Origin: an uncultured virus (IMG/VR IMGVR_UViG_3300023174_009220)
Lineage: Duplodnaviria > Heunggongvirae > Uroviricota > Caudoviricetes
IMG/VR virus record: IMGVR_UViG_3300023174_009220
Direction: 5' to 3' (one strand)
Length of the DNA stretch: 64,000 nucleotides
Shown here: one piece after another, positions 335 to 59,133 of the stretch
Numbering within the stretch: position 1 is the stretch's first letter
How the letters are laid out: each line of letters starts with the position of its first letter
The notes under the pieces: model-generated
The model's database searches: none
What the model saw: the letters and a program-made list of their open reading frames with translations, nothing else
What the model was told of the DNA's origin: nothing
Translations under genes and position numbers: made by a program

Positions 335-2419
335 ATGAAAGGGATTAAAGTTGTTTCTGGGAAAACTTATATTGGAATTGTTGAGGACAACGTAGATCCA
401 GATAAATTAGGTCGCATAAAAATTAGAGTTTTAGATGTCTTCGATGAGGCAAAGATAGAGGAGATTCCCTTTGCGACACCTTGGAAAGACTTAGGAGGTA
501 GCCAAATATCAATACCAGAAAAAGGTAAAGTTGTTATGGTAGTGTTTGAACAAGGCGATGCCTACAAACCAGAATATATATCCACAGAGCACTGGAACGT
601 TAATTTAGAGAACAAGTTAAAGAGTCTTTCGGATTCAGACTACTTATCAATGAAGTCTTTGATTTTTGACCACAAAACACAAATCTATAGCAATGATACC
701 GAAGGACTTAAATTAGACCACAAATGGAACAATATCAACATCAAATCAAACGGAATTAATCTTAATCTTAAAGATAATAATATGATGCTTAATATTGGAG
801 ATGAGGCCGCAAATCAACAAGCAATATTGGGAAATCATTTTTTAGACTGGTTTGACGAGTTTGTAACAACCTTATTAAGTAACACAGCATTTCTTGGTAA
901 TTTAGGTGGTCCAATATTGACCAACCCCGCTCTAATAAGGGTATTGACAAAATACCAATCATTAAAAGATCCGATGTTTCTTTCACACCATGTCAATATT
1001 GTTGATAACAATAAAGTAACTTCTGTTAAGTCAGAACCTAGACAGGAGACGGCTCAAAACGGTGATGTCTGGACATCAACGAAAACACAAAATACGGTAA
1101 CTACCACAACAAACGAAACGAATAAACCAACTACCGGTGACAAGCAACAATATGATGAAAAACACACAGAACCAAGCACTGAAATCCCTGGAGTAAGACC
1201 AGAAGTGGTCGTGACTCCAAAAAATTTACCCAAGCCAACGGGTGATTCTATGGGAACAAACAAAAAAGTTGAAAAAATAATATGGTTCTTAAAGTCTAAA
1301 AATTATAAGATTTTTGAAAAAACTATGGAGTTAAACCTGGTTGCTTTTAGAAACAAAAAAAATGTTAAGGATGAAGAATTATCAAATGTGACTAATAAAT
1401 TTGATGAAAGCTTGGCGGTTTTTTACAAAGATGACAAAAACGAATGGCAACTAATCGAATACTCAATAACAACAGTTCCAGGATTAGTACCACAGAGTAA
1501 AAACCTTCCAAGTAAAGTTGCTATATTAAGATCTGGTCAATATTATGAGGTAATCAGGTTGGGTAATTATTTAGGAAATGAAAACTATAAATGTTTAATC
1601 TTTGATTCTTGTGAGATACACAGAAATGATAAGATAGACCGATATAATTTTGATTCTCCAAGTGAACGTGGAAATTTTGCAATTACAATTCATGCTTCAT
1701 CAGAAATTAGCAGCAGTGAATATATTTTTAATTACTCTGAAGGAGCCCAAGTATTTAAAAATAAAAACCAATATGACCAATTTATAAAACTTTGCCAGAG
1801 GCAAATTGAAACATCAAAGAAAACAACTTTTACATATACACTCTGTGATAAATCAGAATTTGACCAATATCCTGAGCCAGATAAACAAAGAGAGGAACTT
1901 AGTAAAATAACACAACCTAATCCAGTTGTTTCTAATCAAGAAGAGACACCACAAACCGTGACCGCAGAGGTTGTCAAAATACCAATATCTCCAGGTCTTT
2001 CAAAGTTAGGAACAAAGAAAGATGATTTAGAATTAGGTGTTAAACTATATAAAGGTCTAAATGGTCAAGAAGTATCCAAACTTCAACAAATACTTAATCG
2101 AATTAATTCTGATTATTATTTAGGCAAATATGTTTCTGTTAAAGAGACAGGTCTTTTCGATGAATCGACATTGAAACTGCTTATGTCAATCACAAATGCC
2201 AAATCTATTGATTTATTTACAGCTTATACAATTCTTTATGGATACAGCAAAGAGCTTTGGGACAAAGGACAGGGTCTGGATTTTTCAAACACTCTCAAAA
2301 AAGAATTGATACTCCTAAAACCTCCATACAACATTGCTTCAAATGTAAAGTATTTACGTGAGAATCCAGAAGAAAGAGCAGCTATTAAAAAGAGATATCA
2401 ATCATCTAGACCGATATAA
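335..2419 (+). CDS. Baseplate hub/spike protein, T4 gp5/VgrG OB-fold N-terminus, C-terminal peptidoglycan-binding-like domain
   Basis: N-terminal YIGIVEDNVDPDKLGRIKIRV...IPEKGKVVMVVFEQGD is the typical Gp5_OB pattern; LYKGLNGQEVSKLQQILN resembles PG_binding_1. Confidence 0.8.
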   Translation: MKGIKVVSGKTYIGIVEDNVDPDKLGRIKIRVLDVFDEAKIEEIPFATPWKDLGGSQISIPEKGKVVMVVFEQGDAYKPEYISTEHWNVNLENKLKSLSDSDYLSMKSLIFDHKTQIYSNDTEGLKLDHKWNNINIKSNGINLNLKDNNMMLNIGDEAANQQAILGNHFLDWFDEFVTTLLSNTAFLGNLGGPILTNPALIRVLTKYQSLKDPMFLSHHVNIVDNNKVTSVKSEPRQETAQNGDVWTSTKTQNTVTTTTNETNKPTTGDKQQYDEKHTEPSTEIPGVRPEVVVTPKNLPKPTGDSMGTNKKVEKIIWFLKSKNYKIFEKTMELNLVAFRNKKNVKDEELSNVTNKFDESLAVFYKDDKNEWQLIEYSITTVPGLVPQSKNLPSKVAILRSGQYYEVIRLGNYLGNENYKCLIFDSCEIHRNDKIDRYNFDSPSERGNFAITIHASSEISSSEYIFNYSEGAQVFKNKNQYDQFIKLCQRQIETSKKTTFTYTLCDKSEFDQYPEPDKQREELSKITQPNPVVSNQEETPQTVTAEVVKIPISPGLSKLGTKKDDLELGVKLYKGLNGQEVSKLQQILNRINSDYYLGKYVSVKETGLFDESTLKLLMSITNAKSIDLFTAYTILYGYSKELWDKGQGLDFSNTLKKELILLKPPYNIASNVKYLRENPEERAAIKKRYQSSRPI

Positions 2420-16435: not shown

Positions 16436-17044
16436 CTAAACCGGCTTTTCATCTTTTAAAAAATTAATAACTTTTTCTTTGATTCCACTTTGTTTAATGC
16501 CTTCACTTGATTTTGGTGTTAAAACAAAATTAGTTAAACCATAATTTTTATCTTGATTATCAGAGAAGTATTTTGATAAAAACTCAAGGCTCATATTAAG
16601 GTCATCAATCGCAACCCAATGTGTAACTTCAGGATGATTCTTTAACCAATGTCCAATCTCCATACTTCGTTCTAATTCCAAATCGGCACGAAATCTAAAT
16701 GCGTTCCATTCTTTTGGGAATATCTCATTAAATATGTCAGTCATCGCAATTGGTCTTTTGATAATCCCTTGACTAATATAATAATCTCCAAGTTCTTCTA
16801 AATTTGCATGAAGTCTCCAATCAGAACTCACAACAATCTCACATCCTGTCTCTTCAATAATCTCATTAAGGATTTTAATTGCCTTTTTATCAAAGTCGTC
16901 AAATCGAACAAATACAGGGGCGTCTTTCTTTTCCCTACTACTGTCAGGATTTGCTGAACGGTATTTTGCCCATTTCTTACTTCGTCCACCCCAGTTATTA
17001 GAGAGACAAATTACACCATCATGGTCCAACACTAATATCTTCAT
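16436..17044 (-). CDS. HAD-superfamily protein (Swiss-army-knife RNA-repair-like HAD)
   Basis: LDHDGV, VVSSDWR, WVAIDDL. Confidence 0.85.
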   Translation of the reverse strand: MKILVLDHDGVICLSNNWGGRSKKWAKYRSANPDSSREKKDAPVFVRFDDFDKKAIKILNEIIEETGCEIVVSSDWRLHANLEELGDYYISQGIIKRPIAMTDIFNEIFPKEWNAFRFRADLELERSMEIGHWLKNHPEVTHWVAIDDLNMSLEFLSKYFSDNQDKNYGLTNFVLTPKSSEGIKQSGIKEKVINFLKDEKPV

Positions 17045-17494: not shown

Positions 17495-17926
17495 TTATTT
17501 ACTCATTAAGTATTGGACAACTTGTGACCAATTTTTAAATTTTTCATCTTTTCCAAAGTGAATATGTTCTCCTTCAAATTCAGTCTGCCCGTGACGGTGA
17601 TCATCATCAATTAGAAAATCACCTTTAACCAATGATTTATCAGGACAAAGAATCATTTTATTTAACATATCTTCACCAAGATATTTTTTAATCCATTCTG
17701 CTTTTTCGGTATAACAGTGTGTATTTTTGATAGATGGTATAGTTAATATCCAAACATCGTATTTAGTTTGTAGAGTCCTAACTCCTTCAATTGCACCTTC
17801 AATCGGTTCTAAATCTAAAAAGAATCCTACTTTTGAATGTGGATATTTTAATTTGAATTCACCTGTTTTGAATGGTGTGATAAAATCACAAAGGGTGTCA
17901 TCCATATCTACATATACCTTTTTCAT
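17495..17926 (-). CDS. 5'(3')-deoxyribonucleotidase (NT5C, HAD family)
   Basis: VYVDMDDTLCDF ... EKAEWI ... DKSLVKGDFLIDD; start moved to MKKVYV downstream of the TATATTTG promoter. Confidence 0.9.
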   Translation of the reverse strand: MKKVYVDMDDTLCDFITPFKTGEFKLKYPHSKVGFFLDLEPIEGAIEGVRTLQTKYDVWILTIPSIKNTHCYTEKAEWIKKYLGEDMLNKMILCPDKSLVKGDFLIDDDHRHGQTEFEGEHIHFGKDEKFKNWSQVVQYLMSK

Positions 17927-17942
17927 AAGACAAATATACAAA

Positions 17943-18136: not shown

Positions 18137-18137
<1 letters not shown>
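17943..18137 (-). CDS. Hypothetical protein with C-terminal RxxKLxxIL motif
   Basis: Ends KRGGKLDEILK; start overlaps the purA stop. Confidence 0.7.
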
Positions 18138-19834
<1,697 letters not shown>

Positions 19835-20449: not shown

Positions 20450-21781
20450 ATGACAGTAAGTTTTAATGAATTCTTTGCACAACAGTTAATAGAAAGTATT
20501 ATCAACGATACTTATAGAATTGTTGAATCTCAAGAAATAGAAAACGATGAGAATGTTTATGAGTGGGATTTTGAGCCTAAAAATCCAAACAAAGAAGTAC
20601 AAAGCAGAATTACTGATAAATTAAAAAAACTGGTAAATTATCTACCAAAAGAAAAGTTAAAAAAATATTACACCATTCTGATCAACAAGTTAGAAGGTCT
20701 TCCAACAAAGATCAGAAGATTCTTTATCTTACATTATACAAGTATATTTTTAACAGTTGTATCACTCAGTTTTTTATTATCAGGACAAAGTGAAAGTGAC
20801 CATAAAAACTCCCAATATATAAAACCTAAATTACTCAAGGAGGTTGAAACTTTAACACAAAGGTCAAGTTTTAGAGAAGCTCAAATCGGGGTTAAACAAG
20901 TAGAGTCTGGATATTCAGATGATAGAGGTGATAGTGGAAATTATGTCTATATACCTGGTTATGGAAGGAGATTTGTAGGAACCAATCACGGAATTTCAGC
21001 TCCGGTTTTAGCCGAATATTTAGGAAGGCCACCTAAAAGAGAAGATATGGAAAACCTCGACTATGAAACGGCTCTTTTGATATTCAAAACTCGATTTTGG
21101 GATGCCAATAATTTAGATCAATTGTGTAATCAATCAGTTGCCAATATAATTTACGATGGCTGTGTTAATCAGGGAGTATCAAGGCTTAAAAATATAGTTC
21201 AAAATGCCTGTATAAAATTAGATCAACCGCTACAGGGTGAAACCTTTAGTTCTGAAAATATGAAAAAAATAAACTCGCTAGACCAAAAACAACTTTTCGA
21301 TACAATCAAAAGTGAAAGAGCAGATGCTTATAGAAACGCGGCTACTTGGAAAAGACACGGTAGGGGCTGGATGAAAAGACTAGATTCAATTACTTATCAA
21401 CCACCAATTGGTCAAAGTACACCAGTGTTGGAAAATTATAATTATGATTTAGAATATTTCTTTGATCACTTAAAAGGAGATGGTTTTGAAGTTGGTTATG
21501 AATTGGGTGATTCTGCTTGGGTCAGACTATTTAAACCAACTCAATTTTCTGGACCACGAGGTATTTATTCATACGTTAGCTGTGATACTTTCAAATGGTC
21601 TGATGTATCATCAGAGGTTGACAGATTTATTAATGAAATTGGTCAAGAAGAAATAACCTGGATAAGCGCCGTAGTAAGAAACGGTTATAAACACGACCGT
21701 ATACAAATATCATTTGAGCAAACTGCGGATTTAAACTTTGACCCGGGTCTTTTAATTTCAGTGACAATAGGGTTCAAATAA
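20450..21781 (+). CDS. Multidomain protein with GH108-type lysozyme domain
   Basis: ESGYSDDRGDSGNY..GTNHGIS..IYDGCVNQG..GWMKRL; start placed at MTVSFNEFF just after TAATATATA. Confidence 0.75.
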   Translation: MTVSFNEFFAQQLIESIINDTYRIVESQEIENDENVYEWDFEPKNPNKEVQSRITDKLKKLVNYLPKEKLKKYYTILINKLEGLPTKIRRFFILHYTSIFLTVVSLSFLLSGQSESDHKNSQYIKPKLLKEVETLTQRSSFREAQIGVKQVESGYSDDRGDSGNYVYIPGYGRRFVGTNHGISAPVLAEYLGRPPKREDMENLDYETALLIFKTRFWDANNLDQLCNQSVANIIYDGCVNQGVSRLKNIVQNACIKLDQPLQGETFSSENMKKINSLDQKQLFDTIKSERADAYRNAATWKRHGRGWMKRLDSITYQPPIGQSTPVLENYNYDLEYFFDHLKGDGFEVGYELGDSAWVRLFKPTQFSGPRGIYSYVSCDTFKWSDVSSEVDRFINEIGQEEITWISAVVRNGYKHDRIQISFEQTADLNFDPGLLISVTIGFK

Positions 21782-21822
21782 ACTTTTTATCCACTACTAT
21801 CTATAAATAAATAAAAACTGAC

Positions 21823-22194
21823 ATGGGTTGTAAAAGAATTTTAATCGCCGATCTTTCACAAAATGCAGATTTAAAGCAGGAGATTAAAAATTCAATTAAT
21901 CAAAAGACAAATCGGACATTGATTCACGACCACCACGATGTAACAAAATCCAAAACAATTTCTTTTATTAAACAAGAACTGGAATCACAAAAGATAGACT
22001 ATGCAATAGTTCTAACAAATAAAGTTATGGATATTCAAAAAATTCAAAGCCATACCACAAGAGTAAGACCGTCTCTTTGTTGGAATCTTAAAGTTGCAAA
22101 AGAAATTAAGTGGGATTGTAATTTTATTTTTGTTCCTGTCGAGCAAATAGACAAGTCTGACATTATTGAATTTCTACACGAGATAATCTTTTGA
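21823..22194 (+). CDS. Hypothetical protein
   Basis: 123-aa ORF. Confidence 0.6.
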   Translation: MGCKRILIADLSQNADLKQEIKNSINQKTNRTLIHDHHDVTKSKTISFIKQELESQKIDYAIVLTNKVMDIQKIQSHTTRVRPSLCWNLKVAKEIKWDCNFIFVPVEQIDKSDIIEFLHEIIF

Positions 22195-22208
22195 TTGTTT
22201 CTGACGGT

Positions 22209-22362
22209 CACTTTTTTTAAAAATTTTTTTTACCCGCTCCGCCGTTCTGTTTTTTGATACGCACTTTTTAAAATTTTTTCCCACCAAAATCGACTCTTTT
22301 TAAAATTTTTTTTTCTACGTTTTTTTTTTCAAAAAACCGTGACGCAGTTTAAAATTTTTTTC
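22209..22362. repeat. Four imperfect copies of TTTAAAA(A)TTTTTT in a convergent intergenic gap
   Basis: Copies at ~22216, ~22267, ~22299 and ~22348, each preceded by a short GAC/CAC-containing word. Confidence 0.55.
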
Positions 22363-22404
22363 TGCAGGAATTTCTCGACATCAGATCACAAAAGATTTTT
22401 AGTT

Positions 22405-22992
22405 CTAATACTTAAATTGAATCTGAAAAAGATAGAAAGGAATATCACAATAATCACCAGTATTATTAAATCTGGTATTTTGCAAAAAAGAAAGACTTGT
22501 GACCCGAAATCCCATACTGGCATCATATCTCCACCCTCGAGTAAGAAAACTACACCTTATCTTGTCAAAAATGAAATTCTCAGAAATAAGATAATCAGTA
22601 ATTGTAAGAACAGAATTAGATATATCACTCCACCGAAAATCGTAATTTCCATGAATATTATATGGATCCCAATCAAATTTAAATATCCTTATAGAAATTA
22701 AATGGGTTTGTAAAGAATCTTCTAAAGAATGCCTTTCAATTTGGACTACAAAATCCCTATCTCTAAGTTCATAGACCATATCATTCAAAGTTTCTGTTAT
22801 TTCTTGAATATGGTCCAAATTTATGCTTTCAGTTTTATAATGACCTCCTCGTCTTTTTCTCTTACAATATTGTTTTTGTGAAAATCCTTTTGGATTACTA
22901 CAATCTATACCCCTTTTATAACTAACAGACCACCTCTTTTTTCCACCAGAACGTGGTTTATTATAGGATTCAAATGTCAATAAATGCATCAT
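22405..22992 (-). CDS. Modular hypothetical protein (CTS-like N-terminus, IDCSNPKGFSQKQYC module, paralogous C-terminal domain)
   Basis: MMHLLTFES; TATATA upstream. Confidence 0.7.
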   Translation of the reverse strand: MMHLLTFESYNKPRSGGKKRWSVSYKRGIDCSNPKGFSQKQYCKRKRRGGHYKTESINLDHIQEITETLNDMVYELRDRDFVVQIERHSLEDSLQTHLISIRIFKFDWDPYNIHGNYDFRWSDISNSVLTITDYLISENFIFDKIRCSFLTRGWRYDASMGFRVTSLSFLQNTRFNNTGDYCDIPFYLFQIQFKY

Positions 22993-23050
22993 ATCTTATA
23001 TATTAAAAAAAATTAAACTTTATAAACTGGTGTAGTATATAATAGATAAA

Positions 23051-23302
23051 ATGGAAAATTCAAATAGTAGTAGCGGACTTGGTGTTGTATCCATAGTTCA
23101 AATAATCTTTATTGTTCTTAAACTAACAGGGAATATTTCTTGGTCCTGGTGGTGGGTTCTATCACCGATTTGGATTCCAGCCGCTTTATTCTTTGCCGTT
23201 TTTTTACTTGTATTTATTGTCATCACTTTTTTGTTGCTTTTTGGATTCAAGTCAGAAGAATTAGTGGAGTATTTTGATAATTTTAAATCAAAAAATTTGT
23301 AA
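23051..23302 (+). CDS. Small phage membrane protein (WSWWWVLSPIW type)
   Basis: IIFIVLKLTGNISWSWWWVLSPIWIP hydrophobic motif. Confidence 0.8.
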   Translation: MENSNSSSGLGVVSIVQIIFIVLKLTGNISWSWWWVLSPIWIPAALFFAVFLLVFIVITFLLLFGFKSEELVEYFDNFKSKNL

Positions 23303-23326
23303 TATCTAAAAAATTGTTTATCTTTG
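23296..23326 (+). promoter_or_regulatory. Bacteroidetes sigmaA-type promoter (-33 TTTG / -7 TATCTTTG)
   Basis: TTTG at 23296-23299 and TATCTTTG at 23319-23326. Confidence 0.75.
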
Positions 23327-23331
23327 TCCTA

Positions 23332-23590
23332 AGGTATTTAAGTTATACCGAAACAAAAATAACAAATATCCCCCAATAAATCATTGACGGCAATCTTTGA
23401 TGAATAGGGGGCTAACTTTTGCCGAAGTTAGGGGATGATAAATCTGTTTGTCCCGCAGTAGGTGTCAGTATCAGTCATATCGATACGGCTGAATTAGAAG
23501 GTGTATGACATAGGTGGATGAAATGTGAATTCTGAAACCGAAAATGAACCGATGGGTGTTTGATTCACACAGACACAATCGGTTTTTTTT
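23332..23590 (+). ncRNA. Candidate structured ncRNA (~260 nt) with kissing loop and intrinsic terminator
   Basis: Own promoter; no ORF of 60 aa or more; elevated GC; stacked hairpins; loop CGGCAA complementary to loop TTGCCG; terminal AACCGAT...ATCGGTT hairpin plus T-run. Confidence 0.7.
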
Positions 23591-23592
23591 AT

Positions 23593-24324
23593 TTAGTTTT
23601 CTAATTCATTTAGTAAAACAAAGTGTATATTAATGCTCACTTCTCTTTTAGTATTCCACGGCATAGCAGAACCTTCGACTCTCCAAGAAATATCAAATGT
23701 TCCCCTTTGGTAATCTAAATTTCTAATAAGTTTGATTGCTGCATCTTCACCTAAATCAAGAAGTTGTTGCTCTTCAAAATTCAATTCCTTTGCATGTCTA
23801 AGTGTTGAAACCGTTGTATTCTTTACTCCGTCTTGGTCAAAATTACATCGGATGTGGTAATTTCCAGTCCAATTTGCCAAAATAGGTTTATAAAAAGAAA
23901 TTCTCAGTTCTTCATAGTCAATCCAATCATTTCCGGTTTTTTCGTTTGAGCCATCTAAGAAATGTCTGTCTACGTCATAAATTAGTAATTCTAAATCAAA
24001 ATCTTGGTCGGTGATTTCAAAGGTGCAATTTTTAATAATTTGCTGAATTTCACCGTTGAGCTTTGGGTCTCTTGAAACCGATTCAGTTAATTTAGTAATT
24101 TCACGAGTTGGGGCCAAATCTCTTAAATCAGTGACTTGTGATGGGTTTCCCTTTTTTCTTTTCTTTTTATCTAACATATAAAACGAGACATCACCACTTC
24201 CACTAAGAGTTGCTGTTCCAGGTGCCCCACCAACTGTGGCGTTTGCAACTGCTCCCATTCCTGCTGATGATGATGCTGAGGTGGTGGCGTTTTCTAAGAA
24301 ATCCTTAAAACGTTTTATCTTCAT
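23593..24324 (-). CDS. Hypothetical protein with CTS-like N-terminus
   Basis: MKIKRFKDFLEN; TATATA upstream. Confidence 0.7.
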   Translation of the reverse strand: MKIKRFKDFLENATTSASSSAGMGAVANATVGGAPGTATLSGSGDVSFYMLDKKKRKKGNPSQVTDLRDLAPTREITKLTESVSRDPKLNGEIQQIIKNCTFEITDQDFDLELLIYDVDRHFLDGSNEKTGNDWIDYEELRISFYKPILANWTGNYHIRCNFDQDGVKNTTVSTLRHAKELNFEEQQLLDLGEDAAIKLIRNLDYQRGTFDISWRVEGSAMPWNTKREVSINIHFVLLNELEN

Positions 24325-24401
24325 TTAGTATATATAAAATGTGTAAAATTTTTTTTGGTTTTAGTCCAAACTTTTCTTATATTTGAACAAAAAAAAAGAG
24401 T

Positions 24402-25118
24402 ATGCCAAACTGGTCCTATAATAGACTTAAAATTGAAGGTAGTCAAAAAGATATGAAACACTTTTTAGACCAATCACTCAAGCCAAATCCTAACGGTGAA
24501 AAAACTTTTAAATTTTCTAATTTGATTCCAGTGCCTGAAAAAATTCAAAGGACTATTTCTCCCGCTTCTTCGGCCCTTGGAAGGAAATGGGTAAATGAAC
24601 ACCAAGTCTCAAAAATTAGAGATGAAAAAATTGACTCCATTTTTAGTGATTCTGGAGTCGAAAATCAGTTAATTCCACTTGAAAATAACACGCCAGAAAA
24701 ATGCCAGGCTCTAATCAAAGAATTTGGGGCTGATAATTGGTATGATTGGAATTTACAAAATTGGGGAACAAAATGGGATATCGAAGTAGACGATTATTTT
24801 GTATCCGATACTGAGTTTGAATGCCAATTCGATACCGCCTGGTCTGCTCCAACAGAATTTTTACACCAACTCCAGAAGAAATTTCCAAATTTAGACCTTA
24901 GATTGACTTATCTTCTAGAAGGTAGTGAAGATTGTGGCGTTATTTATACCCATAGAACTCCAGAGGGGGCGCAAATTGTCGAACAGGGGGACCAAATTAG
25001 GTATCAATCTATTTGTGGCAAAGAAGTGGTCTTTGACTACGATAGTGGTGAATACCACTTCGTCGATTCTGGATTAGTTTGTGAAGACGTAATTGAAATA
25101 AATCCATTTGATGAATAA
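24402..25118 (+). CDS. DUF1281/YubB ferredoxin-like family phage protein
   Basis: MPNWSYN ... NWYDWNLQNWGTKWD ... FDTAWSAP; TATATTTG promoter at 24378. Confidence 0.75.
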   Translation: MPNWSYNRLKIEGSQKDMKHFLDQSLKPNPNGEKTFKFSNLIPVPEKIQRTISPASSALGRKWVNEHQVSKIRDEKIDSIFSDSGVENQLIPLENNTPEKCQALIKEFGADNWYDWNLQNWGTKWDIEVDDYFVSDTEFECQFDTAWSAPTEFLHQLQKKFPNLDLRLTYLLEGSEDCGVIYTHRTPEGAQIVEQGDQIRYQSICGKEVVFDYDSGEYHFVDSGLVCEDVIEINPFDE

Positions 25119-25332
25119 AATTGATCTACACGGTGTTAGGCACGCCCAAGTCCAAAGGACTTTGGATATTTTCTTTTGGGAAATGATAAATAAAAATGCC
25201 AGTCGTGTAGAGGTGATTACAGGATTGAGTCAGGTGATGAAAGAACTGGTTTATAAGGTTTCTAGTGACTATAAATTTAAAGTTTCTGAAAATCCCCTAA
25301 ACTCCGGTTCTGTTTTTATCGATTTAGAGTGA
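25108..25332 (+). CDS. Small Smr/MutS2-like domain protein
   Basis: IDLHGVRH ... VITG ... NSG. Confidence 0.7.
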   Translation: MMNKIDLHGVRHAQVQRTLDIFFWEMINKNASRVEVITGLSQVMKELVYKVSSDYKFKVSENPLNSGSVFIDLE

Positions 25333-25614
25333 CTATAAATACTTAGTTTTATCTCCCCATTGTCTAATGACAGGAACTTGCATATATCCTTCTTTTCCCC
25401 TCGACTCCAAGTCTAAATCTATCACCAGTTGGTTAAAGACTCCTAGTGGAGTCTCTCCCTGGTCAATTAGTGATTCTATATCTAAGTTAGAAATAAGTTC
25501 TCTTATATAAATTGTGGTTAAATTCCACTGACCAAGTAGTCTGGCTAATTCTTGACAAAATTCTTCTTTGCTCCAAAATGATTCAAAAAGTGGATATGAC
25601 TTTAGGTGTTTCAC
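25333..25614 (-). CDS. Hypothetical protein with CTS-like N-terminus
   Basis: GTG start MKHLKSYPLFES; TATATA upstream. Confidence 0.7.
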   Translation of the reverse strand: MKHLKSYPLFESFWSKEEFCQELARLLGQWNLTTIYIRELISNLDIESLIDQGETPLGVFNQLVIDLDLESRGKEGYMQVPVIRQWGDKTKYL

Positions 25615-25629
25615 AGGGTATATATTAAA

Positions 25630-25659
25630 AAAGGGGAGACTAAAATAAATCTCCCCTTT
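25630..25659 (-). terminator. Intrinsic terminator
   Basis: AAAGGGGAGA...TCTCCCCTTT inverted repeat after the 25667..25909 gene. Confidence 0.65.
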
Positions 25660-25666
25660 CTTTGTT

Positions 25667-25909
25667 TTAGAAGTTCTCTCTTTTTGTCATAATTTGACTA
25701 AAGTTTTCGATATTTTTTTCTACCGATTCCCATAAAAAGATGCAGAACCATAAGACCATTCCAAAAGGTGGAACAGCAAATGTGGCCCTAATTGACCTAG
25801 TCCAAAAGGGCTTTGAAAGCCAACCTCGTGAAATTAAATCAGTGATAGCATGGAGGTTTATAGTCCAGATAAGATAACCGACTAAGAGTAAGAAAAGTGA
25901 TTGTAACAT
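25667..25909 (-). CDS. Small membrane protein
   Basis: 80-aa ORF with two hydrophobic segments. Confidence 0.55.
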   Translation of the reverse strand: MLQSLFLLLVGYLIWTINLHAITDLISRGWLSKPFWTRSIRATFAVPPFGMVLWFCIFLWESVEKNIENFSQIMTKRENF

Positions 25910-26045
25910 AGTGTGATATTTTTTTTAATTCTTACGAAAATTAGTGGCACTGGTTGTCTAAAATACTAATAAGTTGTAGAATTTGTTGATAAAGGGCCTA
26001 AAATTTGCAGAAAAATTTAATATATAAAAAAAATAGTGTTAATGT

Positions 26046-32697: not shown

Positions 32698-34494
32698 ATG
32701 TCAAACTACAAATTAATTTCTAAAATTTGGCAATTTGCCAAACCGTTTAGAAAAACACTTCTTCTTATATTTCTTTGTATTTTAGCAATTTGGTCAATTG
32801 AGGCTCTTAGCACTATTTTTTTAAGTTCAATCTTTGATATAATACAACTACACTCAAACAATATCAATTATTTACCTCAAGCCATGTTTTTTTCAGGACT
32901 AGCGGTGGTTGGAGTAGTAGTCAAAATTTTAATTTCAAGATATCAAGGTTACGTCGAGATAAAAAAATTAGATATTGTAGTTTCCAACCAATTAAATCAT
33001 AACTCCATCAGTCGTTATTTTAATTTTTCGAATGGTCAACATATCAACGAGCATTCTGGTGTTAAACAGAGTATTATTACATCTGGGTTTACTTCGATTC
33101 AAAGTCAGATACATATGTTTGTTTATGTATTTTTTCCAGCAATTGCCAATTTCTTTACCTCCATCTTTATGCTTTTTCTAGTTAGTAAACTTATTGGAAT
33201 AGCTTATATTTTTTTTAGTGTGATAATGGTTTTTGTGTTAATAAAATTCAACAAATACTTACAACCAAAAATCAGAGAAGTTAGAGATGCTCGAAATGAA
33301 ACTTCTAGAACTGTTTCTGAATTATATCGTTTTGTTTTTTTAATCAAAAATGAAGTGGCTGAAAAAAAATCACTAAGTGACTTAGATGACATTCAAAACA
33401 CACACCAACACACTTATGAAAGGGCTTGGATTCCTGGAAACAATTGGATTACAATCATCAAATTATCGATGTCTATTTTTAGATATGCTTCTATAATAGT
33501 TGGTGTTTGGTTTTTATTTTTAGGCTGGACTACAGCTGGTTCTATTTTTCTTCTTTTTACCTGGTCACAAAATTTCATTACCAGCCTTTGGATGATTACA
33601 GATATGCAAAAGCAATTCATTGGAGACAAAGTAAACATTGAAAAATACTTTGAAATGATAGATGTTGAGTCTGATATTAAAGAATCAGAAAATCCAATTA
33701 CAACAAATTTAATTGGCGACATTGAGTTTAGAAACGTCAATTTTAGATATCCAATTAGAAAAAAATCACACAGTATAAAAGAAACTTGTGATTCTGAGCT
33801 AGTAATTAAGAATTTAAGTTTTACTATTTCGTTAGGTCAGAAAGTTGCTTTCGTTGGAGAAAGTGGTTCGGGAAAATCAACCATTGCAAATTTAATCAGA
33901 AGAGCCTTTGATCCCCAAAGTGGTCAAATATTGTTTAATGGTAAAAATCTAAAAGACATTAAGTTATCGACTTTACTTAAAATGATTGGATCGGTCGATC
34001 AAGAAGTTCAACTATTTGACAGAAGTATTAGACATAATATTTCATTTGGAACAGATGAACTACTGACCGATAGTGAATTAAATAAAATTGCTAAGCTTTC
34101 AAGAATAGATTCTTTTTATAAAAAATTAGAACATGGTTGGGACACTATTGTTGGTGAACGCGGATCTAAAATTTCTGGTGGCGAAAAACAAAGAATTGGA
34201 ATAGCAAGAGCTCTGGCTAAAAATCCAGAAATATTAATTTTTGACGAAGCTACTTCGGCCCTTGATACCGTAAGTGAAAGAGTAGTTCAAAGGTCGATAG
34301 ATGTTGCTTGTAAAGGTAAAACCTCTATAATAATAGCACACCGACTTTCAACTGTAAAAAACTGTGATAAGATTTTTGTATTAAAAAACGGCAATCTAAT
34401 TGCAGAAGGCACTCACGAAGAGTTATTATTAAGTTCAGACTACTATCAAGAGTTAGTGAAACATCAATTGGGTGGTAAACAAAACACAATTTAA
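32698..34494 (+). CDS. ABC exporter, fused permease and ATPase (MsbA/ABCB-like)
   Basis: N-terminal TM helices; GESGSGKS, ISGGEKQR, IFDEATSALD, IAHRLST. Confidence 0.92.
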   Translation: MSNYKLISKIWQFAKPFRKTLLLIFLCILAIWSIEALSTIFLSSIFDIIQLHSNNINYLPQAMFFSGLAVVGVVVKILISRYQGYVEIKKLDIVVSNQLNHNSISRYFNFSNGQHINEHSGVKQSIITSGFTSIQSQIHMFVYVFFPAIANFFTSIFMLFLVSKLIGIAYIFFSVIMVFVLIKFNKYLQPKIREVRDARNETSRTVSELYRFVFLIKNEVAEKKSLSDLDDIQNTHQHTYERAWIPGNNWITIIKLSMSIFRYASIIVGVWFLFLGWTTAGSIFLLFTWSQNFITSLWMITDMQKQFIGDKVNIEKYFEMIDVESDIKESENPITTNLIGDIEFRNVNFRYPIRKKSHSIKETCDSELVIKNLSFTISLGQKVAFVGESGSGKSTIANLIRRAFDPQSGQILFNGKNLKDIKLSTLLKMIGSVDQEVQLFDRSIRHNISFGTDELLTDSELNKIAKLSRIDSFYKKLEHGWDTIVGERGSKISGGEKQRIGIARALAKNPEILIFDEATSALDTVSERVVQRSIDVACKGKTSIIIAHRLSTVKNCDKIFVLKNGNLIAEGTHEELLLSSDYYQELVKHQLGGKQNTI

Positions 34495-56829: not shown

Positions 56830-56901
56830 GGCCCGGTCTTCTAATGGCTAGGAAATCCGGTTTTCATCCGGGCAATCGGAGTTCGATTCTCCGTCGGGCT
56901 A
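56830..56901 (+). tRNA. tRNA-Glu (TTC)
   Basis: Acceptor GGCCCGG/TCGGGCT; anticodon arm TCCGG-TT-TTC-AT-CCGGG; T-loop GTTCGATTC; CCA not encoded. Confidence 0.9.
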
Positions 56902-57804
56902 CTAACCTAATCCTTTGTGATAGGCTTTTATCCACTTTCTAATTGTATTTTCAGATACATTATAAAGTTTTCCAGTTTTAGGAAACCCCATTTGTTTAGT
57001 TTGTTCTAATAAAACTGGTAATGGGGGTCTTTCTACTTTTCTTTGTTTAAATTTAGATTGAATTTCTAACTCTGTAAAACCAAATTCATTTCTTTCTTTT
57101 TTTTGGTATTTTTTTGGTTTAACGACTAAACCAATTCTGTGATTATTAATCTTTGGTTTGTCCTTCAATATTAATAATATTTGTTTGAATACCTCATCGA
57201 TGTTGGTTTTTATCTCTTTTTCTGAGACTCTAATAACTAACCAACCTAAGTCATTTAATAGTTTATCTTTTTTATCATCTCTTTCTTTTCTTTCGGGTAA
57301 TAAGTGTTGTGACCCATCAATCTCAACCGCAACCGTTTCATTTACAAAAGCAAAATCAATAAAATATGGAAAAACAGAATATTCCCTAACTATTGAATAT
57401 TTTTTATCTAAACTATTTTTTTCAATATATTCAATACACAATTTTTCAGGGTAAGAAACATTGGATAATCTCCAAGCGGTTTTTTCTGGATTATTTTTCA
57501 TAAACTCCAACCTTTTTTCTCGCATTATTTTTTTACTTTCTTCGGTGTGTTTGTAGTTTTCGGGATATTTTTTATGTGCTAATTTAATAGCTTCGGAAGA
57601 AGACCTAACTTTATTTCCCAATATGTCTTTTATATCTTCGGATTGGATTTTAAATTTTTTTCTTAAATCTTTAACACTATAAGATTCATCAACATATAAT
57701 CTAACAATCTCATCTTTAATTACAGACAACTTTTCGCATTTTTTAATGTGTTGTTTTAGATTAACTTTATCTAAATTGCGACCACAAATTTTACATTCAA
57801 ACAT
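56902..57804 (-). CDS. Vsr/DUF559-type (PD-(D/E)xK) endonuclease with Zn-finger, NUMOD3-like and HTH motifs; homing-endonuclease-like
   Basis: CKICG..H, KHTEESKKIM, YFIDFAF..AVEIDGSQH..RDDKKDKLL..GWLVIRV, VSENTIRKW; start placed at MFECK after TATATA. Confidence 0.8.
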   Translation of the reverse strand: MFECKICGRNLDKVNLKQHIKKCEKLSVIKDEIVRLYVDESYSVKDLRKKFKIQSEDIKDILGNKVRSSSEAIKLAHKKYPENYKHTEESKKIMREKRLEFMKNNPEKTAWRLSNVSYPEKLCIEYIEKNSLDKKYSIVREYSVFPYFIDFAFVNETVAVEIDGSQHLLPERKERDDKKDKLLNDLGWLVIRVSEKEIKTNIDEVFKQILLILKDKPKINNHRIGLVVKPKKYQKKERNEFGFTELEIQSKFKQRKVERPPLPVLLEQTKQMGFPKTGKLYNVSENTIRKWIKAYHKGLG

Positions 57805-58083: not shown

Positions 58084-58157
58084 GGACCGGTAGTTCAGTT
58101 GGTTAGAATACCTGCCTGTCACGCAGGGGGTCGCGGGTTCGAGTCCCGTCCAGTCCG
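58084..58157 (+). tRNA. tRNA-Asp (GTC)
   Basis: GGACCGG/CCAGTCC acceptor (one C-A mismatch); CCTGC-CT-GTC-AC-GCAGG; GGTTCGAGTCC. Confidence 0.92.
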
Positions 58158-58187
58158 CAAAAAAAAAGACAATTTTTTTGAAAATTG

Positions 58188-58219
58188 TTTGGTAGAGATA
58201 AAAAAAAGAGTTATCTTTG
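58188..58219 (+). promoter_or_regulatory. Bacteroidetes-type promoter upstream of the large RNA
   Basis: TTTG at 58188-58191; TATCTTTG at 58212-58219. Confidence 0.7.
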
Positions 58220-58224
58220 TTAAA

Positions 58225-59133
58225 CAAAATCAAAAAAGTGAATATAAAAAGAGAGTTGCAAACGAGCAACCTCATAAATTGAAATATTGTTCTTTAGCAG
58301 TTAGCTTCGGCTGGCTGTGAAAAGAGGGGCGGCTTATAGTCCCTAAAATAAACCGTGAAAGCGGGATAAAGTGAACACAATTGCTAAATGTGTTTGCGTC
58401 TCATACCCCTCGGGGTGTGAGGTCGAGTAAGCAAGTGGGACACCACAACTCCTTATTAGTCGAGGGTAACACTGTAGATGAAATGGATTTGTGACCGGGC
58501 AATTGTAGATTGTCTGGTTGACTTTGGAAGAAGAATAGGATTAACCCATAGGATTGTTGCAAGAAGTAGTGACTCACCGGTCTTTATCATTGCGGAATCC
58601 AACTCAAAAGGTGTCTTAAAGTCGAAAGGCAATCAGATGTACAGGTGGTGCTGTTATTTGACACTCTTCTCTCTACCAGGAGAGTCGTAGTGAAGAGATC
58701 TTAAAGAGTTGTGATGGAGGCATCACACCGAGTTGTTCAGTATTGCTGGAGTCAAAAGCTTTGGGAACTGAGAGGTGACCACAACTTGGAAAAATCTACA
58801 AGCACTAAATTTCTAACTATTATTAAATACTAAGAAATCAAAAGTGTTACCTAGTTACTGATGAAAGATACCTACTTAGTCGTGAGCGTTCACGGCCACT
58901 GAAGCCCGAAAAGCTGATGTGATTTCATCGAAAAACTTATAGAGGGTCGAACCTCAAATCAGCTCGCAAGGTTGAGTAAGCAGAGTAAATGGAGAGTAAT
59001 TAGTAACTTAAGTGGTGGTTGGTCTAACCAACCGGTATTGACAGAATACTTCTCAAAAGGAAGTGGATAAGAAGGGAAACCATAATCTGACCAAAGTTCT
59101 GTTGTCAAAGGTGTAATCTCAGCCTTTTTTTTT
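58225..59133 (+). ncRNA. Large (~900 nt) ornate structured ncRNA, GOLLD-like candidate
   Basis: No credible ORF; elevated GC; many UUCG/GNRA hairpins; long-range helices; adjacent to tRNAs; ends in a hairpin plus T9. Confidence 0.7.

What the first reader, a model, noticed from the sequence alone, without database searches (positions are those of the whole stretch)
23332..23590. Stand-alone ~260-nt structured RNA with a perfect 6-nt kissing loop
Seen: between a Bacteroidetes promoter (23296-23326) and a terminator-like hairpin plus T-run (23547-23590), with no ORF of 60 aa or more. Helices: GGTAT/ATACC; CCCCC 23370-74 / GGGGG 23407-11 capped by loop CGGCAA (23388-93); CTAACTT/AAGTTAG capped by loop TTGCCG (23419-24), the exact reverse complement of the first loop; GGGATGA/TTGTCCC; GTGTCA/TGACAT enclosing TCAGTC/GGCTGA. 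AGTA...GAA words resemble loop-E motifs. The downstream gene is convergent, so this is not a riboswitch leader. I cannot match it to tmRNA, SRP, RNase P, 6S or a riboswitch. Inference: a trans-acting, tertiary-structured phage RNA, possibly undescribed.
Basis: partly seen in the sequence, partly recalled or inferred. Interest (0 to 1): 0.78.

Follow-up and report, generated by a model that had tools for sequence, protein, structure and literature searches.

The report
New folded RNA gene of megaphages

Summary
The finding holds. Window 23331-23596 (+) is a single-copy gene for a ~266-nt non-coding RNA. It has a Bacteroidetes-type promoter (TTTG 23296-99, TATCTTTG 23319-26) and a hairpin plus T-run terminator.

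- **No known family.** It matches no Rfam 15 family.
- **Homologues.** A covariance model found 83 copies (72 distinct): 2 uncultured phage genomes of 634-642 kb, 7 IMG/VR contigs and 72 of 77 metagenome loci.
- **Structure.** 95.8% of pair cells are paired, against 83.0% in shuffles and 32-42% in slid controls. 52 of 65 pairs show changes on both sides.
CGGCAA/TTGCCG is paired in every sequence and covaries, with at least 4 independent C-G to U-A switches.
- **New features.** There are two more long-range pairings: P6 loop with a downstream strand, and P8 loop with the terminator loop. There is also an invariant AGUA/GAA loop-E module.

Function is unknown. I infer a trans-acting shape RNA. 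Its complementary loops could instead join copies, as in phi29 pRNA, ROOL and GOLLD.

The scan noted this family before on other DNA (e1-6079200).

The parts
23296..23326 (+). Bacteroidetes-type promoter: TTTG (23296-99), a 19-nt spacer, then TATCTTTG (23319-26)
   Evidence: TAnnTTTG ends exactly 4 nt before RNA position 1 in 58 of 59 distinct upstream sequences. TTTG lies 19-20 nt further upstream in 44 of 59. The motif is enriched in the window: 15 matches against 4.1 expected. The consensus itself is recalled from the literature.
23331..23596 (+). The RNA gene (~266 nt); the only copy in the window
   Evidence: Covariance model R1 scores 286.6 bits, E = 1.1e-77, with no other hit in the window. 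Family lengths are 246-274 nt, median 266.
23333..23349 (+). P1, the 5'-terminal hairpin GGTAT/ATACC
   Evidence: 100% paired; all 5 pairs change on both sides (helix 1).
23350..23369 (+). J1/2, an A-rich single-stranded linker with the conserved stretch AACAAATAT
   Evidence: Alignments. No pairing partner was found.
23370..23411 (+). P2 arm: P2a CCCCC/GGGGG, an A-rich internal loop, P2b ATCA (23380-83)/TGAT (23398-401), GA/TC, and loop L2 CGGCAA (23388-93)
   Evidence: helices 2 and 3: 88% and 86% paired, with 8 of 9 pairs changing on both sides.
23412..23431 (+). P3 hairpin CTAACTT/AAGTTAG with loop L3 TTGCCG (23419-24). K1 is the pairing of L2 with L3.
   Evidence: P3 is 97.8% paired and all 7 pairs covary. 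K1 is 100% paired and 3 of 6 pairs covary. The K1 pair at alignment columns 65-98 switches C-G to U-A at least 4 times on the tree, and no sequence of the 65 shows a mismatch there.
23432..23454 (+). P4 hairpin GGGAT/GTCCC with the conserved 13-nt loop L4
   Evidence: 100% paired but nearly invariant, so covariation says nothing for or against it (helix 6).
23457..23462 (+). Loop-E / bulged-G module, 5' strand: AGTA (23457-60) plus P5 5' strand GG (23461-62)
   Evidence: A, G, U, A are invariant in 71 of 71 sequences. The P5 pairs at columns 141-173 and 142-172 are 100% paired, and A-U becomes G-C in 3 sequences.
23468..23486 (+). P6 hairpin GTATC/GATAC. Its loop carries GTCATA (23474-79), the 5' strand of K2.
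   Evidence: 99.7% paired; all 5 pairs covary.
23489..23493 (+). P5 3' strand CT (23489-90) and the invariant GAA (23491-93) of the loop-E module
23504..23509 (+). K2 3' strand TATGAC, which forms a pseudoknot with the P6 loop
   Evidence: 98.3% paired; 5 of 6 pairs change on both sides (helix 8). The pair at columns 161-190 changes at least 7 times on the tree.
23513..23539 (+). P7 GGT/ACC, a GGAT/TGAA internal loop, P8 GAA/TTC, and loop L8 carrying TGTGA (23524-28), the 5' strand of K3
   Evidence: helices 9 and 10: 87% and 96% paired, with 5 of 6 pairs covarying.
23549..23590 (+). Terminator: T1 CCGAT/ATCGG, T2 GTGTTT/AGACAC, a loop carrying TCACA (23565-69, the 3' strand of K3), and a T-run at 23583-90
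   Evidence: T1 is 85.9% and T2 98.4% paired, and all 11 pairs covary. K3 is 98.2% paired and 3 of 5 pairs covary. K3 switches U-A to C-G at least 3 times on the tree. A T-rich tail follows the stem in 66 of 66 complete distinct sequences.
23051..23302 (+). Upstream neighbour: an 83-aa hydrophobic protein that looks like a two-pass membrane protein (phrog_1374, unknown function)
   Evidence: A relative lies upstream in 51 of 83 loci. It is 41% identical to the LR745206 copy.
23593..24324 (-). Convergent downstream gene, 243 aa, with no family match; its 3' end abuts the terminator
   Evidence: A relative lies downstream in 64 of 83 loci.

Best explanation
**Shown.** This is an independently conserved gene for a ~266-nt non-coding RNA of huge freshwater phages with Bacteroidetes-type promoters. 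The RNA has:
- a 5'-terminal hairpin (P1);
- two adjacent hairpins (P2, P3) whose 6-nt loops are fully complementary (K1);
- an invariant hairpin (P4);
- an AGUA/GAA loop-E module closed by P5;
- a hairpin (P6) whose loop pairs with a downstream strand (K2);
- a P7-P8 arm whose loop pairs with the loop of the terminator hairpin (K3).

**Inferred.** The host RNA polymerase transcribes the gene from its own promoter and stops at the hairpin plus T-run. The product acts in trans through its shape, not by coding, not as a leader and not mainly by antisense pairing. The three long-range pairings lock a compact particle. That particle displays the invariant elements (loop-E module, L4, the AACAAAUAU linker) to a partner, most likely a protein or the translation machinery. 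The partner is unknown.
For: - **Homologues.** 83 copies, 72 distinct, all with E of 7e-28 or lower.
- **Pairing.** 95.8% of cells paired against 83.0% in shuffles (0 of 500 reach it) and 32-42% in slid controls. 52 of 65 pairs change on both sides.
- **Long-range pairings.** K1, K2 and K3 were not part of the model that made the alignment, yet they are 100%, 98.3% and 98.2% paired. Each shows repeated independent double changes.
- **Promoter.** The promoter box sits at a fixed 4-nt distance in 58 of 59 distinct upstream sequences.
- **Terminator.** A T-rich tail follows the stem in 66 of 66 complete distinct sequences.
- **Not coding.** No conserved ORF; the median longest stop-free stretch is 44 aa. 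Frame-shifting 1-2-nt indels lie inside the only candidate frame.
- **Not a 3' UTR.** The RNA keeps its promoter where an opposite-strand gene separates it from the upstream same-strand gene. This holds in 26 loci with an AdoMet decarboxylase gene about 83 nt upstream.
- **Selection.** The RNA is 61-89% identical to the window across the family. The neighbouring protein is 41% identical to its LR745206 copy. BLAST to the two GenBank phages covers only the RNA.
- **Copy number.** One copy per genome in 4 of 4 phage records that hold it.
Against: - **No expression data with ends or strand.** The four RNA-library runs hold the whole 5 kb as uniform contigs, which DNA carry-over would also give.
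- **No partner known.** The neighbours are uncharacterised.
- **Narrow family.** Identity to the window is 61% or more, so some covariation counts reflect shared ancestry. I offset this with tree-based event counts.
- **P4 never varies**, so it is not tested.
- **Cis or trans loops.** Sequence cannot tell whether K1 and K3 form within one molecule or between molecules.
Confidence: 0.55

Rival explanations
1. Self-assembling RNA. The complementary loop pairs (L2/L3, and perhaps L8/terminator loop) pair between copies, hand in hand. The result would be a dimer, ring or larger RNA-only assembly, and that assembly would be the functional form.
For: - Both K1 loops are 6 nt and fully paired, and P2a joins P3 with no linker.
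- P3 (7 bp), K1 (6 bp) and distal P2 (7-8 layers) would stack into a rod of about 21 bp. Only a 5-bp P2a and a 5-6-nt internal loop are available to close that rod within one molecule. This is my own geometric inference and was not computed.
- Arm lengths are conserved across the family.
- In ROOL and GOLLD, kissing loops first read from covariation as tertiary contacts proved to be intermolecular bridges (passages of bioRxiv 10.1101/2024.12.08.627333).
- RNAs under 200 nt can form cages, trimers and filaments (abstract of bioRxiv 10.64898/2026.07.01.735769).
- GOLLD lies in the same window.
Against: - Covariation cannot separate cis from trans pairing.
- Many natural kissing loops are intramolecular; the lysine and cobalamin riboswitches are examples I recall.
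- The A-rich internal loop of P2 could be a sharp turn that allows K1 within one molecule.
- The loops are not palindromic, so the adjacent-nucleotide test used for OLE and GOLLD does not apply.
Confidence: 0.3
2. Catalytic or ligand-binding RNA. The pseudoknotted core would be a ribozyme, or an aptamer that sequesters a small molecule, for example a host signalling nucleotide.
For: - The core is compact and multiply pseudoknotted, with invariant unpaired nucleotides: the loop-E module, L4 and J1/2.
- Its size is in the range of known ribozymes and large aptamers (recalled).
Against: - No match to any ribozyme or riboswitch model of Rfam 15, even at E up to 10.
- No expression platform and no same-strand downstream gene.
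- No conserved cleavage-site signature was recognised.
- The ends are set by a promoter and a terminator, not by processing.
Confidence: 0.1
3. Base-pairing regulator. The conserved single strands (J1/2, L4, or the GAAYUAAAAG linker) would pair with a phage or host mRNA.
For: - Conserved unpaired stretches exist.
- The string ATCGAAYTAAAAGR equals codons of Bacteroidetes rpsE, (D)IELKD, and a MAG contig joins the RNA's 5' 175 nt to rpsE at that string.
Against: - The rpsE identity is same-sense, not antisense.
- It lies in the structurally constrained loop-E strand.
- A 14-mer shared with a 3.7-Mb genome is expected by chance (my estimate).
- The contig lacks the rpsE start codon and the upstream L18 gene that 11 relatives have, so it looks like an assembly chimera.
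- An antisense RNA would not need ten covarying helices.
Confidence: 0.05

Closest known systems
phi29-type packaging RNA (pRNA, Rfam RF00044); its properties are recalled, not read here
   Same: A phage-encoded, free-standing structured RNA. Two of its own loops are complementary to each other, and that complementarity is kept by covariation among related phages.
   Different: No sequence or structure match. This RNA is about 266 nt, against roughly 120-174 nt for pRNA. Its loop pairing is 6 bp, against 4 bp. It lies in a megaphage among lysis-related and unknown genes rather than by a phi29-type packaging module. Ring formation is untested here.
GOLLD and ROOL, the large ornate phage RNAs
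   Same: Orphan, free-standing, highly structured RNAs of phages with unknown function and covarying kissing loops. GOLLD lies in this same window at 58728-59125. Their kissing loops proved to be intermolecular.
   Different: This RNA is two to three times smaller. It has no model match at this locus and an unrelated architecture. It is not beside tRNA genes; the nearest tRNA is about 33 kb away.
Riboswitch aptamers locked by intramolecular kissing loops (lysine L2-L3, cobalamin L5-L13); recalled
   Same: A 5-6-bp loop-loop helix between neighbouring arms stabilises a compact fold.
   Different: There is no expression platform and no downstream gene on the same strand. The RNA has its own promoter and terminator. 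No Rfam riboswitch matches.
Sarcin-ricin / loop-E (bulged-G) motif of rRNA; the consensus is recalled
   Same: The invariant AGUA lies opposite the invariant GAA, closed by covarying Watson-Crick pairs.
   Different: This is a local module, not a family relationship. No rRNA model matches. The 3D geometry is untested.
   Same: It describes the same family on another genome: a ~260-nt free-standing RNA of large freshwater Bacteroidota phages with no catalogued family.
   Different: It concerns a different genome. This report adds the loop-E module, tree-based event counts, the intermolecular reading and the rpsE chimera.

Membership tests
Any Rfam 15 family (including tmRNA, SRP, RNase P, 6S, riboswitches, pRNA, GOLLD, ROOL) | Match to the family's covariance model at or near its gathering score | tested here: not met
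   No gathering-level match in 23000-23900. At E up to 10 there are only 7 matches of 13.7-17.6 bits, all far below their cut-offs. Nothing falls on the RNA in 5 homologous loci. ARAGORN finds no tmRNA.
phi29-type pRNA | Two loops of the same RNA are mutually complementary and covary | tested here: met
   K1 is 100% paired and 3 of 6 pairs change on both sides. One pair switches at least 4 times on the tree.
phi29-type pRNA | The loops pair between molecules to form a ring on the portal | not testable with these tools
   This needs native gels, trans-complementation of loop mutants, or cryo-EM.
phi29-type pRNA | Homology to the pRNA model and a phi29-like genome context | tested here: not met
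   No RF00044 match. The context is an endolysin, a small hydrophobic protein and unknown genes in a megaphage.
GOLLD / ROOL | Model match, a length of several hundred nt or more, and frequent tRNA neighbours | tested here: not met
   GOLLD matches elsewhere in the window (58728-59125) but not here. This RNA is 246-274 nt long. The window's tRNAs are at 56.8 and 58.1 kb.
Riboswitch / cis leader | Lies in the 5' UTR of a gene on the same strand, with an expression platform | tested here: not met
   The next gene is convergent (23593-24324, minus strand). The RNA ends in its own terminator.
Loop-E / sarcin-ricin motif (module, not family) | AGUA opposite GAA, flanked by Watson-Crick pairs | tested here: met
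   A, G, U, A and G, A, A are invariant in 71 of 71 sequences. The flanking pairs are 100% paired, and A-U becomes G-C in 3 sequences.
Small protein-coding gene | A conserved open frame with codon-like substitution | tested here: not met
   No ORF of 60 aa or more. The median longest stop-free stretch is 44 aa. Indels of 1-2 nt lie in the candidate frame.

The most novel reading that the evidence does not exclude
The RNA is a small, RNA-only self-assembling unit. Its two pairs of mutually complementary loops join copies hand in hand into a closed dimer or ring. It would be a 266-nt megaphage counterpart of phi29 pRNA rings and the ROOL/GOLLD cages, encoded in the same genome as a GOLLD RNA.
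Probability: 0.3. Interest if true: 0.85.

Novelty: new variant of a known kind. Interest (0 to 1): 0.72.

Why it matters
Orphan, highly structured RNAs of phages are few, and none has a known function. The recent finding that ROOL and GOLLD build RNA-only cages has made each new class valuable.

This one is short enough for direct synthesis, chemical probing and cryo-EM. Its secondary structure is unusually well determined: 52 of 65 pairs covary. It carries three long-range pairings and sits in megaphages that also encode GOLLD.

It offers a tractable test of whether loop-loop complementarity in phage RNAs generally means assembly between molecules. It could also lead to a new host-takeover function in the largest known phages.

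Tried and rejected
- **Known RNA families.** Rfam at gathering level and at E up to 10, plus ARAGORN, gave nothing at the locus.
- **5S rRNA.** A resemblance of CGAACTAAAAGGTG to 5S rRNA, recalled from memory, has no 5S model match. Dropped.
- **Link to ribosomal protein S5.**
  - MAG contig L107 joins the RNA's first ~175 nt to rpsE.
  - Eleven relatives have a normal rpsE start (M/V SNANIKRVKSSDIELKD) with L18 upstream.
  - The shared string is about 21 nt, and the MAG has no other copy.
  - I read this as an assembly chimera.
- **Host homologue.** The model found none in the 150 other genomes searched of that MAG's class. This means not found in those searched, not absent.
- **Further tertiary pairs.** A mutual-information scan gave only the known pairs and their neighbours. 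A J1/2 AACA with L4 UGUU pairing is broken in sequences that have AAAA in place of AACA, such as L001 and L030.
- **Expression.** Four RNA-library runs of one study hold the whole 5 kb as contigs of uniform depth. This gives no ends, strand or ranking, and DNA carry-over is not excluded.
- **More distant relatives in IMG/VR.**
  - The 5' module pattern found only 2 known contigs.
  - A 3' domain pattern gave 98 stretches. Of the 80 loci listed, all 80 were searched with the model, and only 2 are family members, both already known.
- **Neighbour annotation.** Pfam and PHROGs gave no functional lead.
- **Literature.** Searches for a published description found none. The 11-mer hits are unrelated papers on mice, dogs and human disease.

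Full report
**Observation**

These are TTTG 23296-99 and TATCTTTG 23319-26, the hairpins, the two loops CGGCAA (23388-93) and TTGCCG (23419-24), and a hairpin plus T-run ending at 23590. The consensus scan also lists a terminator-like site at 23556-76. No ORF of 60 aa or more overlaps the region; the largest is 35 aa on the minus strand.

The plus strand folds only modestly better than shuffles (-67.3 kcal/mol, z = -2.20, 2 of 200 shuffles as good). The minus strand folds less well (z = -1.28). A single sequence therefore does not decide the matter.

**Not a known family**

- Rfam 15 at gathering level gives three matches in the window: GOLLD at 58728-59125 and two tRNAs. None is near the locus.
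- At E up to 10 on 23000-23900 there are 7 matches of 13.7-17.6 bits, all far below their cut-offs.
- Five homologous loci give nothing on the RNA.
- ARAGORN finds only tRNA-Glu and tRNA-Asp.

**Homologues**

- BLAST against 50,697 phage records finds two: LR745206.1 (634,780 bp; 73.2% identity) and LR756502.1 (642,428 bp; 76.7%). In both, only the RNA aligns.
- A core pattern finds 9 IMG/VR loci. Seven are homologues and two (L017, L019) are chance matches.
- A second pattern finds 77 metagenome loci and 6 genome-collection loci.
- A covariance model built from 10 sequences (R1; 270 positions, 48 pairs) then scored 95 sources and found 83 matches, 72 of them distinct, all at E of 7e-28 or lower. 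They comprise the window (one copy, 286.6 bits), the 2 GenBank phages, 7 IMG/VR contigs, 72 of 77 metagenome loci and 1 of 6 genome loci.
- Family length is 246-274 nt. Identity to the window is 61-89%.
- There is one copy in each of the 4 phage records that hold it. The fifth record searched is a chance-match contig.
- Contigs reach 436 kb. The huge-phage paper places its genomes above 634 kb in the Mahaphage clade with predicted Bacteroidetes hosts (passages of PMC7162821). That LR745206 and LR756502 are those genomes is my inference from their sizes.

**Structure**

I counted on alignment A3 with three added long-range pairings.

| Measure | Result |
|---|---|
| Cells forming a standard pair | 95.8% |
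| Same, in shuffles | 83.0% (0 of 500 reach the observed value) |
| Same, in slid controls | 32-42% |
| Pairs with changes on both sides | 52 of 65 |

| Element | Window words | Cells paired |
|---|---|---|
| P1 | GGTAT/ATACC | 100% |
| P2a | CCCCC/GGGGG | 88% |
| P2b | ATCA/TGAT | 86% |
| P3 | CTAACTT/AAGTTAG | 97.8% |
| P4 | GGGAT/GTCCC | 100%, nearly invariant, so untested |
| P6 | GTATC/GATAC | 99.7% |
| P7 | GGT/ACC | 87% |
| P8 | GAA/TTC | 96% |
| T1 | CCGAT/ATCGG | 86% |
| T2 | GTGTTT/AGACAC | 98% |

The alignment was fitted to these nested helices, which favours them. The three long-range pairings were not in the model, so they carry no such bias.

| Pairing | Partners | Cells paired | Pairs with double changes | Most frequent switch on the tree |
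|---|---|---|---|---|
| K1 | L2 with L3 | 100% | 3 of 6 | C-G to U-A, at least 4 times, no mismatch in 65 sequences |
| K2 | P6 loop GTCATA with TATGAC at 23504-09 | 98.3% | 5 of 6 | columns 161-190, at least 7 times |
| K3 | P8 loop TGTGA with terminator loop TCACA | 98.2% | 3 of 5 | U-A to C-G, at least 3 times |

The tree was built without the tested columns. RNAalifold found K3 on its own from 10 sequences.

**Loop-E module**

- AGUA (23457-60) and GAA (23491-93) are invariant in 71 of 71 sequences.
- They are closed by two pairs that are always paired: G-C or G-U, and A-U with G-C in 3 sequences.
- That this is the bulged-G motif rests on the recalled consensus.

GTGTCA/TGACAT is paired in 69.7% of cells and TCAGTC/GGCTGA in 78.4%, with no compensation. 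They clash with P6 and K2. GGGATGA/TTGTCCC is conserved over five pairs only.

**A gene of its own**

- TAnnTTTG ends exactly 4 nt before position 1 in 58 of 59 distinct upstream sequences. TTTG lies 19-20 nt further upstream in 44 of 59.
- The same two-box motif occurs 15 times in the window against 4.1 expected. It lies upstream of other genes and of the GOLLD region.
- All 66 complete distinct sequences have a T-rich tail after the terminator stem.
- No frame is conserved, and 1-2-nt indels lie in the only candidate frame.
- In 26 loci an opposite-strand AdoMet decarboxylase gene sits about 83 nt upstream, yet the promoter and RNA are unchanged. The RNA is therefore not the 3' UTR of the small hydrophobic-protein gene.

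**Context**

The local order is largely shared across loci:
1. GH108 endolysin
2. 123-aa protein
3. 195-aa protein (minus strand)
4. 83-aa hydrophobic protein (phrog_1374)
5. the RNA
6. convergent gene of 243-392 aa with no family
7. DUF1281_C protein

As all these loci come from related phages, the shared order says little about function.

**Expression**

Four RNA-library runs of one study hold the whole 5-kb stretch as contigs of uniform depth. This shows neither ends nor strand, and DNA carry-over would look the same.

**Mechanism**

- *Shown:* a conserved, independently delimited, non-coding and highly structured RNA.
- *Inferred:* it acts in trans through its shape.
- *Best reading (0.55):* a compact particle locked by K1-K3 that presents its invariant unpaired elements to a partner.
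- *Main rival, and the most novel reading (0.3):* the complementary loops pair between copies.

My geometric argument for the rival is as follows. Both K1 loops are 6 nt and fully paired. P3 (7 bp), K1 (6 bp) and distal P2 (7-8 layers) would therefore stack into a rod of about 21 bp. Only a 5-bp P2a, a 5-6-nt internal loop and no linker at all are available to close that rod within one molecule. A reciprocal dimer or a ring avoids the strain. This is inference and was not computed.

Precedent exists. Kissing loops of ROOL and GOLLD, first read from covariation as tertiary contacts, are intermolecular bridges (passages of bioRxiv 10.1101/2024.12.08.627333). RNAs under 200 nt form cages, trimers and filaments (abstract of bioRxiv 10.64898/2026.07.01.735769).

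**The rpsE contig**

L107, a MAG contig, starts with the promoter and the RNA's first ~175 nt. It then runs into ribosomal protein S5 coding sequence with no start codon.

Eleven relatives have a normal S5 start and L18 upstream. The shared string is about 21 nt. I read the contig as an assembly chimera. The model found no host copy in the 150 other genomes searched of that class.

**Novelty**

- No Rfam family matches.
- No description was found in four text searches.
- The scan itself noted the same family earlier on another genome (e1-6079200).
- I class it as a new variant of a known kind: an orphan, free-standing structured phage RNA with its own architecture.

Noticed in passing
window 58188-59125 (+), with tRNAs at 56830-56902 and 58084-58158: GOLLD RNA (RF02032, 276 bits) lies at 58728-59125. 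A Bacteroidetes-type promoter match at 58188-58219 sits just after tRNA-Asp, so the full GOLLD transcript may start near 58224 and span about 900 nt.
   Followed up: partly
L107 1-720 (MAG contig CAIRRW010000057.1): The promoter and the first ~175 nt of the RNA are joined to rpsE, which here lacks its start codon and the upstream L18 gene. The shared string is about 21 nt (AGTGA[A/T]ATCGAATTAAAAGAT). This is probably an assembly chimera. The RNA's conserved ATCGAAYTAAAAGR equals the rpsE codons (D)IELKD in the same sense, which I take as coincidence.
   Followed up: yes
L005 about 1150-1560, minus strand (LR756502.1 near 11.05 kb): A second locus in that phage carries the same promoter and the P1 hairpin (36 nt, 94% identical). 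It then diverges into a different leader and an ORF starting MKHLKKYNESEF. The 5' hairpin may be a reusable module.
   Followed up: partly
window 18137-19420 (-), with 16436-17044 (-) and 17495-17941 (-): Adenylosuccinate synthetase (Pfam 557.7 bits; the best PHROG, phrog_1211, is labelled '2-aminooxy adenylosuccinate synthetase'). It sits beside an NT5C-type nucleotidase and a HAD_SAK_2 domain protein. I did not resolve whether it is an ordinary PurA or a PurZ-type enzyme.
   Followed up: partly
whole window: The two-box motif TTTG-N17-21-TAnnTTTG occurs 15 times against 4.1 expected, mostly just upstream of genes. This fits a Bacteroidota host polymerase.
   Followed up: partly
window 32698-34494 (+): An ABC-transporter-like protein (phrog_2392, E = 1e-123) is encoded by the phage.
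   Followed up: no
L011 2426-2803 (-), L016 1634-2161 (+): Relatives carry an AdoMet decarboxylase and an RpiB-type sugar isomerase next to the RNA. The window's 123-aa ORF at 21823-22194 clusters with the RpiB group.
   Followed up: no
window 21000-26000: One RNA-library run holds all sampled words of this stretch, and its contigs lie on it with no differing letters in the two long pieces. That sample may be the window's source.
   Followed up: partly
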